Source: Candidatus Kerfeldbacteria bacterium
GTDB lineage: Bacteria > Patescibacteriota > Patescibacteriia > SBBC01 > CAIJZX01
DNA length: 64,000 nucleotides
Direction: 5' to 3'
NCBI GenBank assembly: GCA_016193315.1
Contig: JACPSJ010000001.1
Location: 284,446 to 348,445, forward strand
Shown: one piece after another, positions 4,326 to 32,108 of the stretch
Position numbering within the stretch: position 1 is the first letter of the stretch
Layout: every line of letters starts with the position of its first letter
Position numbers and translations under genes: made by a program
Notes under the pieces: generated by a model
What the model was told of the DNA's origin: nothing
Databases searched by the model: none
What the model saw: the letters and a program-made list of their open reading frames with translations, nothing else

Positions 4326-5210
4326 ATGTCTAACCGCCACGATTCTTACGCCGTCGCTTCATTGCTCTTCGCCCTGGTTGGCGCGATTCTAGTCGTACCC
4401 GTGGCGGCCCAGTACCTCGAACCAGATGCCCCCCCGCCCGAGGGCCGGAGCGGGGTTTATCTCGACATATCCAGCCAGCCGCAGCAGAAACTCGGCTCGC
4501 TGCTCATCGGCGATGGCGATGTTGGCGATCAGCTGTGCTTGAATTCACCGAGCACTGGCGACGCCGGCCCATACTGCCTGGGGTCGTGGTCCGACGTCTA
4601 CGAGCGCGTCAACGGACCGTTCGTCAAAGTTCGCCAGGATCAGATCGGCGCCGCCCCCGAGGTCGTCAGTAGCTACGATAGTTTGCGCCAGAACGGGTAC
4701 ATGCGCTTGCGGGGTGCTGGCAGTACGCCCGCCACGACCTACCAGTCCGACGCCGACGCCGGAGCTGGCACTAAGGTCGGTATCTATGCCGGTGACCGCG
4801 GTGATATCAGCGGCTATGCCGCGCAGTTTACCGGGCAGCTGCGTATCAACGAACACAACAACGTCGGCGCCGACCCCGGCGAACTCTGCCTCGGCCCGTT
4901 TGACGACGGTGGAACCGCCCCCTATGACCAGGCCGGTCCGGCGCCGCGCTATGGCTGCCTGCAACAATGGAGCCAGCTGACCGCTGGCCTGATCGGGCCG
5001 TACCTCAAGGTGCAGAGCAGCAACCCGCCGAGCGACGTGCAGCTTGGCAGCGTCCGCATGGCCGGCAAAGCCTTCCAACTCGACGTTGGAACGGTCGTCG
5101 GAGGGGTAACTCCGGGCATGATTTGTGCCGGCGGGAATTGCTTTTGCGGCGACGGGTTGTGCAGCGCCGAAGCCGGCGAAACTGCGGCTACTTGCAGCAA
5201 TGATTGTTGA
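4326..5210 (+). CDS. secreted Cys-motif protein, paralog C
   Basis: Signal peptide, YLEPDAPPPEG, QQKLGSLLIGDGD, QLCLNS...YCLGSW, ELCLGP...GCLQQW. C-terminus is ICAGGNCFCGDGLCSAEAGETAATCSNDC. Confidence 0.6.
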   Translation: MSNRHDSYAVASLLFALVGAILVVPVAAQYLEPDAPPPEGRSGVYLDISSQPQQKLGSLLIGDGDVGDQLCLNSPSTGDAGPYCLGSWSDVYERVNGPFVKVRQDQIGAAPEVVSSYDSLRQNGYMRLRGAGSTPATTYQSDADAGAGTKVGIYAGDRGDISGYAAQFTGQLRINEHNNVGADPGELCLGPFDDGGTAPYDQAGPAPRYGCLQQWSQLTAGLIGPYLKVQSSNPPSDVQLGSVRMAGKAFQLDVGTVVGGVTPGMICAGGNCFCGDGLCSAEAGETAATCSNDC

Positions 5211-29205: not shown

Positions 29206-29592
29206 ATGGTCAAGAAGAAACCCACCGTGCTCCTAGTTGAAGACGAGAAGATGCTGGCGGATATGTATGCCACCAAGTTTTCAATGGAAGGCTTTGCCAC
29301 TCACAAGGCCTACGACGGCCAAGCGGGCCTACGTTTGGCCCAAGACATGAAACCGGATATCATTCTGCTCGACATCATCATGCCGAAGCTCGATGGCTTT
29401 GCCGTGCTCAAGGCCCTCCGCCAAGACCCGTCATTCAAATCGACGCCGGTACTGTTGCTGACCAACCTCGGTCAGGACGAGGACATTAAGAAAGGCCAGC
29501 AGCTCGGGGCGACCGACTATTTCGTCAAAGCCAACCACACGCCGGCCGAAGTAGTCAATAAGGTTCGGACCATCCTCCGTCAGCCGGTATGA
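29206..29592 (+). CDS. stand-alone response-regulator receiver protein (paralog of 16163-16582)
   Basis: VLLVEDE...DIILLDIIMP...LTNLG...VKA. About 55% identical to the REC gene inside the pilus locus. Confidence 0.8.
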   Translation: MVKKKPTVLLVEDEKMLADMYATKFSMEGFATHKAYDGQAGLRLAQDMKPDIILLDIIMPKLDGFAVLKALRQDPSFKSTPVLLLTNLGQDEDIKKGQQLGATDYFVKANHTPAEVVNKVRTILRQPV

Positions 29593-29595
29593 CTA

Positions 29596-29754
29596 GCACT
29601 CATTTCAAAACCTGCTTTCATGGCGAAATGGTCGGTTTCGCGGGCGAGGCGCTGCGGCGGAGGGTGAAATGTATTAGATATACACTGAGCCCGGGCCGCC
29701 AGCCGCAGCCCGAAACCGGGCCTGGCAGCCGAAATGAGGTTTTGAAATGAGTGC
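29596..29754. repeat. 159-bp MITE-like palindromic element with 18-bp perfect terminal inverted repeats
   Basis: GCACTCATTTCAAAACCT (29596-29613) pairs with AGGTTTTGAAATGAGTGC (29737-29754). Nested GC hairpins inside (GCGAAATGGTCGGTTTCGC; GCTGCGGC...GCCGCAGC; GCCCGAAACCGGGC). Begins 3 nt after the REC stop. Confidence 0.45.
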
Positions 29755-29808
29755 CTGGTCGGAGAAATAGTTCAGCGCTTTGAGCAAGCCGGCCTAAAAA
29801 TCGTCGGG

Positions 29809-30288
29809 ATGAAAATGGTGTGGGTCGATAAGGGGCAGGTGGCGAAGCACTACCCCGACGCTCGGACCGAACTGTTGAAGGCGATGGGCGAGAAGTCGCT
29901 CAAGACGTATGCCAAATACGGCCTGGCGCCCGAAAGCATCCTCGGCACTACCGAACCATTGGCTATCGGCAAGATGATCAACGAGTGGAATCGTCACTTC
30001 CTGACTTCCGGGCCGGTAGTGGCGATGGTGCTCGAAGGTATTCACGCCATCGACAACGTCCGGATGATCACCGGCGACACCCTGCCGACCTTTGCCGAAC
30101 CGGGCAGTATCCGTGGCGACCTGGCGATTGATTCGCCGGCCTTGGCCAACAGCCAGAAGCGAGCCGTGCACAATCTGGTCCACGCCTCCGGTAACCTGGC
30201 TGAGGCGACCTATGAAATAGCGCTCTGGTTCAAACCAGCCGAGGTCCACGACTACAAGCGGGCCGATGAGGATGTGATGTTCGGCTAG
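29809..30288 (+). CDS. ndk: nucleoside diphosphate kinase, apparently 5'-truncated
   Basis: NLVHASGNLAEATYEIALWF, SIRGD and TSGPVVAMVLEG are NDK motifs. In-frame homology (NECLVGEIVQRFEQAGLKIVG) extends upstream of ATG 29809 to a TGA at 29743-29745. The conserved MxxERTFxxIKPDG region is not encoded. Confidence 0.7.
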   Translation: MKMVWVDKGQVAKHYPDARTELLKAMGEKSLKTYAKYGLAPESILGTTEPLAIGKMINEWNRHFLTSGPVVAMVLEGIHAIDNVRMITGDTLPTFAEPGSIRGDLAIDSPALANSQKRAVHNLVHASGNLAEATYEIALWFKPAEVHDYKRADEDVMFG

Positions 30289-30290
30289 GA

Positions 30291-30382
30291 CCACCCCCGA
30301 CCCCTCCCTGTCGCTCACGCCACGCGCCCTCCCCTCAACTGAGGGGACGGCTGTCCGTAGGACTGGGAGGGGTCGGGGGTGG
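30291..30382. repeat. 92-bp GC-rich palindromic element (18-bp perfect inverted repeats) with internal CCCCTC/GAGGGG hairpin
   Basis: CCACCCCCGACCCCTCCC (30291-30308) pairs with GGGAGGGGTCGGGGGTGG (30365-30382). Begins 3 nt after the ndk stop. No T-tract. Confidence 0.4.
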
Positions 30383-30399
30383 GGTGGCGTATCCCTGGC

Positions 30400-30427
30400 T
30401 TGACGACTTGAGTACAGGCGCTATACT
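30400..30427 (+). promoter_or_regulatory. promoter TTGACG-N16-TATACT
   Basis: Near-consensus boxes about 80 nt upstream of the small membrane-protein gene at 30508. Confidence 0.4.
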
Positions 30428-30507
30428 GCTTTTCCTCCTGATCGAGCTGCGGCACAGCATTCCGCCCTTTCACAACCAGCCTGATCAACCTAAGCCATAC
30501 CAAGGCT

Positions 30508-30723
30508 ATGACCATCCATTTGGAATTGGTCACCGCCCCGTACCTTGCACCGCTGCAGGCCTTCGTCACCCAGTACGGCCTGATGGTCCTCGGAGCGTTA
30601 CTGCTCCTCGGCGCCTTCAGCGGTCGACGAATCGGTCCGCTGGCACTCATCACCTTGGTTCTCGGCCTGGGTTTGGTCGTGGCGGGTGCGGCGCACCTTT
30701 TCGTCCCCTTGGTGGGGCGCTGA
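30508..30723 (+). CDS. small two-TM membrane protein
   Basis: 71 aa with two hydrophobic helices. Own promoter upstream and an intrinsic terminator immediately downstream. Confidence 0.5.
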   Translation: MTIHLELVTAPYLAPLQAFVTQYGLMVLGALLLLGAFSGRRIGPLALITLVLGLGLVVAGAAHLFVPLVGR

Positions 30724-30729
30724 TCGATC

Positions 30730-30763
30730 GAAGTCCATGGCCTAGGCCGCGGACTTCTTTTTT
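30730..30763 (+). terminator. Rho-independent terminator
   Basis: GAAGTCC-(loop containing GGCCTAGGCC)-GGACTTC followed by TTTTTT. Confidence 0.6.
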
Positions 30764-30854
30764 CCATTATCCGGAAAATCCCCGGCTTGCCTAAAAAATT
30801 GTCTTGACGTAGAGTAGGCACGATTTCGCCCTTTACCATTCGGAGGGATTCGCC

Positions 30855-31448
30855 ATGATGCCTGTCCGATCAACCTTTGCCGTTGCGGACGGCAGTTTCT
30901 TTGTGGCCGAGTTTTGCGGAAAGTACCGCCATCCGCCATTGCTGGCTCGGAGGTTCGTCGGAGAGATGATGTCGGTTGCCCATGCTATCGATGAGCTCGA
31001 TCGGCCTTACGACGAGCGTCAGGGGTTAGTCCAGTTGCTTGATACGCTGACCGCGCTCCACGTCCACGATGGGATTTTCCTCCAGCGTAGTCTGCTGATG
31101 ATGAGCCTGTCTTTCGTCTTCATCGTCCAGCCATACGTGGTGTGGGGGTCACTGCAACTCGGTCAGCGGTTGGCCATGACGCGCCTGGGCGTTATTGGCC
31201 TGTCCGGTATCCTGACGGGCATGATACTCATGGGACTGCAAATGCTTTTCATGGCGGCCATCCGCCGCGGCCCGGCATACCGTCAACCGCGCCAATCGAT
31301 CTGTCACCAAGCGGCCGAACGATACCAGGCCGAGCCAGGCCTACTGACCACCGACCTGGAACTGCTAGCTGGACATTGTGCGGTCCCGGCCAACGTCTAT
31401 CGTCCGCTGCTCGAAGCCGCCCTGACCAGTCCGAAAGCTATCGCCTAG
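30855..31448 (+). CDS. hypothetical membrane-associated protein
   Basis: 197-aa ORF with GGAGGG RBS 8 nt upstream. Central hydrophobic helices. No family recognised. Confidence 0.45.
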   Translation: MMPVRSTFAVADGSFFVAEFCGKYRHPPLLARRFVGEMMSVAHAIDELDRPYDERQGLVQLLDTLTALHVHDGIFLQRSLLMMSLSFVFIVQPYVVWGSLQLGQRLAMTRLGVIGLSGILTGMILMGLQMLFMAAIRRGPAYRQPRQSICHQAAERYQAEPGLLTTDLELLAGHCAVPANVYRPLLEAALTSPKAIA

Positions 31449-31997
31449 GCTGGTTTTTTCTTGCCAAAAGCGAAGCCGCAGAGTACGCTGAAGCCGCCCC
31501 ATCCCTCATCGTTGTTCGATACATCTGTCCTTGGAGCGCTGAATCCCCCCGGCTCGTGGGCCGAGGGTCTGGCGCAACCGGCGGCCAAAAAGCTGCGGCA
31601 GGACGCTCAAGTGCTCCTTCGCGAAGTACTGGAGTTGTCCGACAGCAGCCCTCGTCATTCGTAACGGCGAGGAATCAGGCCCGCTTACCATGAGTTGAGG
31701 ACACGGTGAGGATGGGGTTCGAGCGGCATCCGGTCGTACGACCGGATAGCGAGCAAACTGCTTTGCTCGCGGCCGCGAGAACGGGCGAGCCGATGCTTCG
31801 AGCGGAGCGAGGAGCCGGATCGCCCAGGGGAAATTGCCAAAATATCAGAAAAATATTTCTAATGGAGCATGGTGCCTCCGTAAAATCCTGCTGTCCCGGG
31901 ATCACGGGGCAGGCAGTTGGCAGCCCCGCGCAACAACTCGCAAGCTCGCGGTCTGTGGGGTAAACGCGCATATTGATAAAACATCGTCAGCTCGGGT

Positions 31998-32070
31998 CGG
32001 GGTGTGGCGCAGCTGGTAGCGCGCTTGCATGGGGTGCAAGAGGCCGTGGGTTCAAATCCCGCCACCCCGA
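31998..32070 (+). tRNA. tRNA-Pro (anticodon GGG)
   Basis: Cloverleaf read by eye. Acceptor CGGGGTG/CACCCCG, D-arm GCGC-AGCTGGTA-GCGC, anticodon arm CTTGC-ATGGGGT-GCAAG, T-arm GTGGG-TTCAAAT-CCCGC, discriminator A. CCA not encoded. Confidence 0.8.
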
Positions 32071-32108
32071 CCCGAGCTGGTAGCGCATGCATGGGGGTCG
32101 AGGCCGCA
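32071..32108 (+). pseudogene. degenerate partial copy of the tRNA-Pro D-arm/anticodon-arm region
   Basis: GAGCTGGTAGCGC-ATGCATGGGGGT-CGAGGCCG parallels tRNA positions about 14-48 (AGCTGGTAGCGC / TGCATGGGG / GAGGCCG). No T-arm or acceptor. Confidence 0.3.

What the first reader, a model, noticed from the sequence alone, without database searches (positions are those of the whole stretch)
29596..29811. ndk has lost its conserved 5' coding end exactly at a 159-bp MITE-like palindromic element
NDK homology in frame (NECLVGEIVQRFEQAGLKIVGMKM...) runs upstream of the first ATG (29809). It stops at a TGA formed inside the right terminal inverted repeat (29737-29754) of an element with perfect 18-bp inverted termini (GCACTCATTTCAAAACCT ... 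AGGTTTTGAAATGAGTGC) and nested GC hairpins.

The segment that should encode the essential MxxERTF(V)MIKPDG beta1/Lys region is absent in all frames between the upstream REC gene and the element. In-frame conservation beyond the start codon argues for a recent insertion or deletion rather than an ancestrally short NDK. The gene is then either a pseudogene or makes an N-truncated, probably inactive, kinase.
Basis: partly seen in the sequence, partly recalled or inferred. Interest (0 to 1): 0.6.

Follow-up and report, generated by a model that had tools for sequence, protein, structure and literature searches.

The report
Small transposon beside a freshly truncated ndk
A 159-bp hairpin-forming miniature transposon sits at the start of the nucleoside diphosphate kinase gene of a Patescibacteria genome and normally lends that gene its ribosome-binding site and start codon, but this copy of the genome has lost a further 67 bp next to the element, which kills the gene; this is an ordinary, very recent strain-level event.

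Summary
Window 29596-29754 is a 159-bp rod-like hairpin with 18-bp perfect termini, and ndk homology starts only at residue 26 (29755).

The interpretation needs correcting. A sibling metagenome contig (L001, protein P0001, 202 aa) is 100% identical downstream. It keeps the element's right arm and carries a complete ndk, MSSNDFRQFVERTMVLVKPDG. Its ATG (window 29747) and its GAGG Shine-Dalgarno lie inside the element's right end. So the insertion did not destroy ndk.

The window instead lacks 67 bp: the element's last 2 nt, a TA, and 63 nt of ndk. This removes codons 3-25 and shifts the frame.

Removing the element plus one TA restores ATG ACT AAT GAT..., which reads MTNDFRQFVERT in the ndk frame and overlaps the upstream response-regulator stop as ATGA.

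Relatives have the response-regulator and ndk genes adjacent without the element. Five further copies with near-identical ~27-nt termini lie in unrelated Patescibacteria contexts, and one of them supplies the ftsK start codon.

Best reading: a miniature transposon (MITE) of the IS630/Tc1 type with a TA duplication, followed by a recent adjacent deletion. An assembly artefact is not excluded. This is a new member of a known kind and of modest interest.

The parts
29206..29592 (+). Response-regulator receiver gene (128 aa). Its stop TGA 29590-29592 overlaps the inferred ancestral ndk start as ATGA.
   Evidence: Pfam PF00072, E = 8.6e-23. The same gene lies directly upstream of ndk in Patescibacteria relatives L005-L009, L011, L013, L017 and L065.
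29589..29591 (+). Inferred ancestral ndk start codon, used before the element inserted.
   Evidence: Removing the element plus one TA gives ATG ACT AAT GAT TTT CGC..., which reads MTNDFRQFVERTMVLVKPDG in the ndk frame.
29594..29595 (+). Left copy of the TA target-site duplication. The right copy was lost in the window and is present in L001 at 29-30.
   Evidence: TA[GCACTCAT...ATGAGTTC]TA in the window left flank plus L001. The same TA...TA flanks the copy in L071.
29596..29752 (+). Retained 157 of 159 nt of the MITE-like element. The conserved left terminus is 29596-29622 and the conserved right terminus is 29727-29752. The interior forms a variable rod.
   Evidence: Hairpin fold. Termini are shared with L070, L071 and L072 (two copies). 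No Rfam match at E <= 10.
29736..29739 (+). Element-borne Shine-Dalgarno-like GAGG, 7 nt upstream of the element-borne ATG.
   Evidence: Read directly from the sequence. The equivalent GGAGG-N7-ATG of the second L072 copy starts ftsK.
29747..29770 (+). Element-borne ATG (29747-29749), the ndk start in the intact allele. In the window it opens only MSAWSEK, then TAG.
   Evidence: In L001 the gene at 21-629 starts at this ATG and gives P0001, 202 aa. Window translation.
29752..29753 (+). Deletion junction. 67 bp (L001 27-93: TC + TA + 63 nt of ndk) are absent between these two bases.
   Evidence: blastn: L001 1-26 = window 29727-29752 and L001 94-2362 = window 29753-32021, both 100%. The deleted sequence is printed.
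29755..30288 (+). ndk remnant, residues 26-202 of the intact protein, with stop TAG 30286-30288. The first canonical in-frame start is ATG 29809, which is Met44.
   Evidence: tblastn of P0001 matches residues 26-202 at 100%. Pfam PF00334. 1xqi alignment.

Best explanation
The 159-bp element is a non-autonomous DNA transposon (MITE), most likely of the IS630/Tc1-mariner type, belonging to a family spread among Patescibacteria. It inserted at a TA, within the sequence CTAA, in codons 2/3 of ndk. In the ancestor, ndk overlapped the stop of the upstream response-regulator gene as ATGA. The element's right end carries an outward-facing GAGG-N7-ATG, so ndk acquired a new ribosome-binding site and start codon (MSS instead of MT) and stayed intact. 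That state survives in a sibling population (P0001). In the genome sampled by the window a second event removed 67 bp: the last 2 nt of the element, the TA, and ndk codons 3-25. The frame then shifts after ATG AGT. What remains can at best be translated from Met44. It lacks strand beta-1, the conserved Lys and helix alpha-1, so it is a very recent pseudogene. The deletion starts exactly where IS630-family transposases cut the 5' strand, 2 nt inside the end. The most likely cause is therefore a transposase-made break at the right end that was rejoined to a resected flank. Shown: the element anatomy, the family, the intact allele, and the extent of the deletion. Inferred: the transposase type, the break-repair mechanism, and that the deletion exists in cells rather than only in the assembly.
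For: The intact allele with the same right arm is 100% identical over the next 2269 nt. Removing the element plus one TA restores an in-frame ndk start with an ATGA overlap to the upstream stop. Nine of the related loci examined have the two genes 10-25 nt apart with no hairpin. Five further copies in four unrelated contexts have near-identical ~27-nt termini and different rod-forming interiors, with z from -6 to -12. TA flanks both ends in the window and in L071, where the reconstructed target is CTAG. The diverged second copy in L072 supplies GGAGG-N7-ATG for ftsK, and public gene calls start there (P0121, 683 aa; relatives start at the equivalent position). Short-read contigs from three samples all end exactly 30 nt (k-1) past the last locus-specific base on the left, and the one contig that reaches the right arm starts exactly 30 nt before the first locus-specific base. 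Other contig ends from the same samples are scattered. This pattern is expected if identical copies exist elsewhere in those samples. ISY100 cuts at the 3' end and 2 nt inside the 5' end, and IS630 prefers TA within CTAG (PMC2170065). The full-length protein aligns to PDB 1xqi from residue 8, whereas the window product aligns only from chain residue 31.
Against: No second copy and no transposase was found in the 64-kb window. Twenty ORFs were scanned, including every ORF in the 300-430 aa size range expected for such a transposase. No autonomous IS with matching termini was found anywhere. TA duplications are clear in only 2 of 5 copies, one-sided in a third, and absent or decayed in two. The deletion allele is seen only in the window: no other contig carries it, and reads could not be inspected. 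The junction has no microhomology, and no end-joining pathway was identified for this organism. Preservation of the rod despite sequence turnover (18 double-change pairs against 9.4 +/- 2.2 in shuffles) is not required for cut-and-paste transposition and points to some additional constraint.
Confidence: 0.62

Rival explanations
1. The 67-bp deletion is an assembly, library or amplification artefact next to a very stable, repeated hairpin. The real genome carries the intact ndk, as in P0001.
For: The only other contig that reaches this junction (L001) has the intact sequence. k=31 assemblies of four samples fail to cross the element. Window and sibling contigs are otherwise 100% identical over 2.3-6.4 kb, so no other divergence accompanies the deletion.
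Against: A de Bruijn assembler cannot invent a junction absent from the reads. The two breakpoints share no k-mer or microhomology that could cause a false join. Repeat-induced misjoins would swap whole flanks, not remove 67 bp of the correct flank plus 2 nt of the element. Polymerase jumping normally deletes the structured part, not its neighbour.
Confidence: 0.25
2. One reading: the element's insertion, or a deletion simultaneous with it, removed the ndk 5' end.
For: The truncation abuts the element.
Against: L001/P0001 combines the element's right arm with a complete ndk. The insertion site can be reconstructed cleanly, with a TA duplication and no loss of ndk sequence.
Confidence: 0.04
3. 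The hairpin is primarily a structured RNA, either a cis-regulatory leader or a small RNA, selected for its fold. In the intact allele it hides the ndk SD and ATG in stem P1 and releases them when ribosomes finish the upstream gene, giving translational coupling. Mobility is secondary.
For: The rod is preserved with compensatory changes. A 2x2 internal loop (GC/UG) and the motifs TTTCG..GCGAGG / CCGCAGCCCGAAA are conserved across copies with otherwise different interiors. The upstream stop lies 4 nt before the left arm of P1. SD and ATG are paired in the fold.
Against: No Rfam family matches at E <= 10. Genomic contexts are unrelated: ndk, ftsK, ftsH, an inositol monophosphatase gene and an intergenic site. 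The element is absent from the same junction in relatives. No expression data are available. This reading is compatible with, not exclusive of, the MITE explanation.
Confidence: 0.2
4. The shortened ndk is still functional, being translated from Met44 (29809) or from a non-canonical codon such as CTG 29755.
For: The frame is open from 29746. The remainder is undamaged and keeps the catalytic-His motif NLVHASGN.
Against: Residues 1-25 (or 1-43) include strand beta-1 and the conserved KPDG lysine, and residues 26-43 include helix alpha-1 and the start of beta-2. None of the 120 closest homologues is shorter than 188 aa. Zero divergence from the intact allele means there has been no time for selection to show.
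Confidence: 0.03

Closest known systems
IS630/Tc1-mariner-derived bacterial MITEs, such as Nezha in Anabaena, RUP in Streptococcus pneumoniae and the ISY100-related elements of cyanobacteria
   Same: Size of about 100-200 bp and no transposase gene. Terminal inverted repeats of 16-27 nt. A TA duplication, with the reconstructed target CTAG in one copy and CTAA in another. A whole-length stem-loop. Location at gene boundaries (Delihas review PMC3184786; PMC2170065).
   Different: No cognate IS630-family transposase or full-length IS was found. The termini are unrelated in sequence to anything in the phage-contig or plasmid collections searched. Copies in different genomes keep identical ends but have almost wholly different interiors.
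Correia (NEMIS) elements of Neisseria
   Same: From my own knowledge and the Delihas review: about 100-155 bp, ~26-bp inverted ends, TA duplication, co-transcribed hairpins that alter expression of neighbouring genes, and insertion close to gene starts.
   Different: Correia ends provide promoter boxes and an IHF site, not an SD plus ATG. The sequences are unrelated and the host phylum differs. RNase III processing was not examined here.
Neisseria REP2 and Borrelia IR repeats
   Same: [quoted passage not shown] This works like the element's right end for ndk and ftsK.
   Different: REP2 has no terminal inverted repeats and is not a rod-like hairpin. It also carries a promoter, and no convincing promoter was found here.
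Rickettsia palindromic elements and other repeats fused in frame to ORFs
   Same: A palindromic mobile element tolerated inside a coding region because it preserves the reading frame or the expression of the gene.
   Different: Here the element is not translated through. It replaces the first two codons and the initiation signals.

Membership tests
MITE (non-autonomous DNA transposon) | Short (<~400 bp) with no transposase ORF | tested here: met
   159 nt. The only ORFs are accidental (53 aa on +, 37 aa on -) and have no Pfam hit.
MITE (non-autonomous DNA transposon) | Terminal inverted repeats | tested here: met
   16-18 bp perfect, 24 nt at 92%. Conserved in all copies.
MITE (non-autonomous DNA transposon) | Target-site duplication | tested here: met
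   TA on both sides in the window (right copy taken from L001) and in L071. One-sided in the second L072 copy. Not recognisable in L070 or the first L072 copy.
MITE (non-autonomous DNA transposon) | Several copies at non-homologous sites | tested here: met
   Five further copies in four contexts, two of them 4.5 kb apart in one genome. None elsewhere in the 64-kb window. Extra copies in the window's own population are inferred only from the k-1 contig breakpoints.
MITE (non-autonomous DNA transposon) | Filled versus empty site | tested here: inconclusive
   Relatives at 60-82% NDK identity have the response-regulator and ndk genes adjacent without the element, and the empty site reconstructs an in-frame ndk. 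No near-isogenic empty allele was found.
IS630 / Tc1-mariner superfamily | TA duplication, with preference for CTAG | tested here: inconclusive
   The reconstructed targets are CTAA (window) and CTAG (L071), and there is a CTAG on one side of the second L072 copy. Two copies do not fit. The rule is taken from PMC2170065.
IS630 / Tc1-mariner superfamily | A DDE transposase whose IS carries the same termini | tested here: not met
   No transposase domain in 20 window ORFs or in 7 ORFs beside other copies. No hits in phage-contig or plasmid collections. Whole genomes could not be searched, so absence is not established.
Nucleoside diphosphate kinase (PF00334) | Domain match and catalytic-His motif N-x-x-H-[AG]-S | tested here: met
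   PF00334, E = 4.6e-28. HNLVHASGN aligns with NLVHASDS of 1xqi.
Nucleoside diphosphate kinase (PF00334) | N-terminal strand beta-1 with the conserved Lys (ERT-x-V-x-x-KPDG) and helix alpha-1 | tested here: not met
   Absent from the window in all frames. Present in the sibling allele P0001.
Any described RNA family (Rfam 15) | Covariance-model match | tested here: not met
   No hit at gathering scores over the window, and none at E <= 10 over 29540-29810.

The most novel reading that the evidence does not exclude
The family is a 'portable translation-start cassette'. On this reading it is a mobile hairpin whose ends are selected to carry outward-facing SD-N7-ATG signals buried in the terminal stem. 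It can then land in the first codons of essential genes (ndk, ftsK) without inactivating them, and it makes their translation depend on melting of the stem, for example by ribosomes finishing the upstream gene. The conserved internal loops and compensatory changes would reflect this RNA-level role. The 2-nt-inside deletion would be a footprint of ongoing transposase activity in a reduced Patescibacteria genome.
Probability: 0.15. Interest if true: 0.6.

Novelty: new member of a known kind. Interest (0 to 1): 0.33.

Why it matters
For annotation, the ndk in this window should be called a frameshifted pseudogene or flagged as a possible assembly error, not a 159-aa kinase. In intact alleles its start codon lies inside a repeat.

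For biology, this is a clean and datable example of a miniature transposon entering the first codons of a housekeeping gene in a small Patescibacteria genome, rescuing the gene with its own initiation signals, and then seeding a neighbouring deletion. It also documents a MITE family in a phylum for which a literature search returned no description of MITEs (the two papers found mention both terms only once each). None of this changes what is known about how such elements work.

Tried and rejected
**Other places for the ndk N-terminus.** tblastn of the N-terminal 31 residues found only LVGEIV at 29755. A split gene, an intron or trans-splicing was therefore rejected, and the 67 missing bases are ordinary coding sequence in L001.

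**Simple excision.** Excising 29596-29754 does not restore a frame. Restoration needs the TA model and the L001 sequence.

**Invertible segment or flip-flop hairpin as the cause of the contig breaks.** Rejected, because those models predict divergence at 29614 and the contigs end at 29622.

**Programmed -1 frameshift from the 7-codon ORF into the ndk frame.** There is no slippery heptamer, and the product would still lack beta-1.

**attC, REP/BIME, IS200/IS605 subterminal hairpins, retron ncRNA, 6S RNA and SRP RNA.** The motifs or contexts do not fit, and Rfam gave no match.

**Searches that returned nothing:**
- Exact-product look-ups for the 159-aa and 157-aa truncated NDK and for the 53-aa ORF inside the element.
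- The scan of viral contigs and the distant blastn against plasmids.
- The search for papers on MITEs in Patescibacteria, which gave only incidental mentions.

**Genome collection.** The window's own genome is not among the GTDB species representatives; the closest is a Kerfeldbacteria MAG at 82% NDK identity.

**Covariation count.** MAFFT aligns the variable interiors poorly, so the count understates pairing.

Full report
**1. What is in the sequence**

Window 29596-29754 carries GCACTCATTTCAAAACCT and its exact reverse complement at its two ends. These are the only two matches in the 64 kb at up to 3 mismatches, against 0.04 expected by chance. The arms extend to 24 nt at 92% complementarity. 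The entire stretch folds into a single rod. As RNA the MFE is -92.2 kcal/mol (z = -7.7), and as DNA it is -47.8 kcal/mol (z = -6.9).

Upstream lies a response-regulator receiver gene (29206-29592; PF00072) and downstream lies ndk (PF00334). The NDK-like frame is open from 29746 and matches NDKs from 29755 (LVGEIVQRF...). This corresponds to residue 31 of the Pyrobaculum NDK chain 1xqi. The first canonical start is ATG 29809.

**2. The intact allele**

The best database homologue, P0001, is 202 aa and 100% identical to the window product. It begins MSSNDFRQFVERTMVLVKPDGVKRG. It sits on a 2362-nt short-read contig, L001, from SRR12113419.

- L001 1-26 equals window 29727-29752, the right arm of the hairpin.
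- L001 94-2362 equals window 29753-32021.
- Both matches are without a mismatch. L001 27-93 (67 nt) has no counterpart in the window.

The ndk start codon of L001 is the ATG at window 29747, inside the element's right end. It is preceded by GAGG (29736-29739) at a 7-nt spacing. In the window the same ATG now reads ATG AGT GCC TGG TCG GAG AAA TAG.

The N-terminal 25 residues are not encoded anywhere else in the window, and there is only one ndk locus. The full-length protein aligns to 1xqi from residue 8, including VEKTLLILKPDAV. All 120 closest homologues are 188-288 aa.

So the gene was complete with the element in place. A later 67-bp frameshifting loss removed codons 3-25.

**3. The element is an insertion, and where it went in**

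In nine related Patescibacteria loci (NDK 60-82% identical) the response-regulator gene is followed by ndk after 10-25 nt, with no hairpin.

In the intact allele the element is bounded by TA on both sides: TA[GCACTCAT...ATGAGTTC]TA. Deleting the 159 nt and one TA gives ...CCGGTATGACTAATGATTTTCGC.... The ATG at 29589, which overlaps the upstream TGA as ATGA, then reads MTNDFRQFVERTMVLVKPDG in the ndk frame.

The element thus entered ndk between codons 2 and 3, and its right end replaced MT by MSS together with a new Shine-Dalgarno sequence. That the frame and an overlapping start codon reappear exactly under a 2-bp duplication model is the main support for a TA duplication.

**4. A family**

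One scan of JGI metagenome contigs used the two 16-nt cores 108-138 nt apart. It returned four loci with no other similarity to the window:

- L070, 12103-12261.
- L071, 2792-2951, in the opposite polarity.
- L072, 9059-9219, which is the same sequence as L073.

A relaxed search found a diverged 196-nt second copy in L072, at 4473-4668.

Shared features are the ends GAACTCATTTCAAAACCTGCTTTC(R)(W)G and GCCG(R)AATGAGGTTTTGAAATGAGTTC, and a conserved 2x2 mismatch (GC opposite TG) after the terminal stem. Some copies also share TTTCG..GCGAGG on the 5' side and CCGCAGCCCGAAA on the 3' side. The interiors otherwise differ, yet each copy folds into a rod (MFE -73 to -82 kcal/mol, z -6 to -12).

Pairing was counted on a sequence-based alignment using the structure derived from L070. 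It gave 18 pairs with changes on both sides, against 9.4 +/- 2.2 in shuffles, and the pairing was best in the unslid register. With five sequences and a MAFFT alignment this is indicative only.

The contexts are ordinary genes: upstream of ftsH, between murJ and ftsK, upstream of an inositol-monophosphatase gene, and between two unknown genes. FtsK relatives are named Patescibacteria.

In the second L072 copy the end GGAGGCTTTGAAATGAGT gives the SD and ATG of ftsK. The public gene call P0121 (683 aa) starts there, and orthologues at 65-74% identity start at the equivalent position. The element's 3' end therefore acts as a start-codon donor in two independent cases.

L071 is flanked by TA on both sides within a reconstructed CTAG. 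The window target is CTAA. Two copies show no clear duplication.

**5. Evidence for more copies in the window's own population**

Three short-read contigs from three samples are identical to the window, and all stop at 29622. L001 starts at 29727.

With k = 31, position 29622 is exactly 30 nt after the last locus-specific base (29592, before CTA plus the element). L001 position 1 is exactly 30 nt before the first locus-specific base after ...GAGTTC-TA. Contigs of the same samples on the ndk side start at scattered positions (29777, 29898, 30125, 30329), so the fixed stops are not coverage accidents.

The simplest reading is that the strings CTA plus the first 27 nt, and the last 28 nt plus TA, occur elsewhere in those samples. 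That would mean identical copies flanked as after insertion into CTAG. This is an inference, because I could not see reads or the rest of the genome. Within the window there is no other copy, and no transposase among 20 ORFs scanned.

**6. Mechanism of the loss**

The junction is ...GAAATGAGT|GCCTGGTC.... It removes the element's last two bases, the TA and 63 nt of ndk. There is no microhomology, so slipped mispairing is unlikely.

[quoted passage not shown] A double-strand break made at the right end would leave duplex DNA ending ...ATGAGT with a 2-nt TC overhang. Loss of that overhang and rejoining to a flank resected by 65 nt gives precisely the observed junction.

Intramolecular transposition would instead keep ...GAGTTC next to a new TA, and this is not seen.

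This mechanism is inferred and I rate it at about 0.35. It is more certain (about 0.7) that the deletion is real rather than an artefact. No shared k-mer could create the join, and misjoins at repeats exchange flanks rather than trimming 67 nt. However, the allele is seen only in the window.

**7. Consequence**

The remnant can start at Met44 at best. It lacks beta-1, the KPDG lysine and alpha-1. It shows zero substitutions relative to the intact allele over 2.27 kb. It is a very young pseudogene, or a minority or strain allele.

In the intact allele the SD and ATG are paired in the terminal stem, and the upstream stop codon lies 4 nt before the other strand of that stem. Translation of ndk may therefore remain coupled to the upstream gene through stem melting. 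This is untested.

**8. Comparison with known elements, and novelty**

The element works like the TA-duplicating bacterial MITEs (Correia, RUP, Nezha). In donating an RBS and ATG it works like Neisseria REP2 and the Borrelia IR repeats. Fusions of repeats to the 5' ends of genes are also documented (PMC3184786).

It matches no Rfam family and nothing in the phage-contig or plasmid collections. A literature search for MITEs in Patescibacteria gave only incidental mentions.

Membership of the IS630 superfamily is not established, because no cognate transposase was found. I file it as a new member of a known kind.

Noticed in passing
window 30291-30382: A second, unrelated rod-like palindrome starts 3 nt after the ndk stop codon. 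It is GC-rich (CCACCCCCGACCCCTCCC...GGGAGGGGTCGGGGGTGG), has 22-nt arms at 95% complementarity, and folds with RNA MFE -75.4 kcal/mol (z = -6.1). No U-tract follows it. It is also present in L001. It could be a terminator-like structure or another palindromic repeat family.
   Followed up: partly
window 31988-32079: tRNA-Pro(GGG) at 31997-32073 lies inside a perfect 17-bp inverted repeat (31988-32004 / 32063-32079). The acceptor stem is therefore extended by about 9-10 further base pairs into the leader and trailer.
   Followed up: no
L070 12088-12110 (- strand): The ATG in the element's 5' end opens a 6-codon mini-ORF (MSSEEK). Its stop (TGA) lies one base before the ATG of the downstream inositol-monophosphatase-family gene (TGAtATG). 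This could be termination-reinitiation coupling or chance.
   Followed up: partly
window 29587-29596 and L071 2783-2792: The same 9 nt, TATGACTAG, precede the element in the window and in L071, although they adjoin opposite polarity ends of the element. This suggests a target preference wider than TA or CTAG, or slightly longer element ends.
   Followed up: no
L002-L004 ends (window 29622) and L001 start (window 29727): Public k=31 assemblies never cross the element. Their breakpoints fall exactly k-1 nt from the last unique base. This pattern could be used to detect other copies of such repeats from contig ends alone.
   Followed up: partly
window 29512-29527 versus 29621-29636: A 16-nt stretch near the 3' end of the response-regulator gene is 88% complementary to the element's interior (ACCGACTATTTCGTCA / TGGCGAAATGGTCGGT). 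This is probably chance.
   Followed up: no
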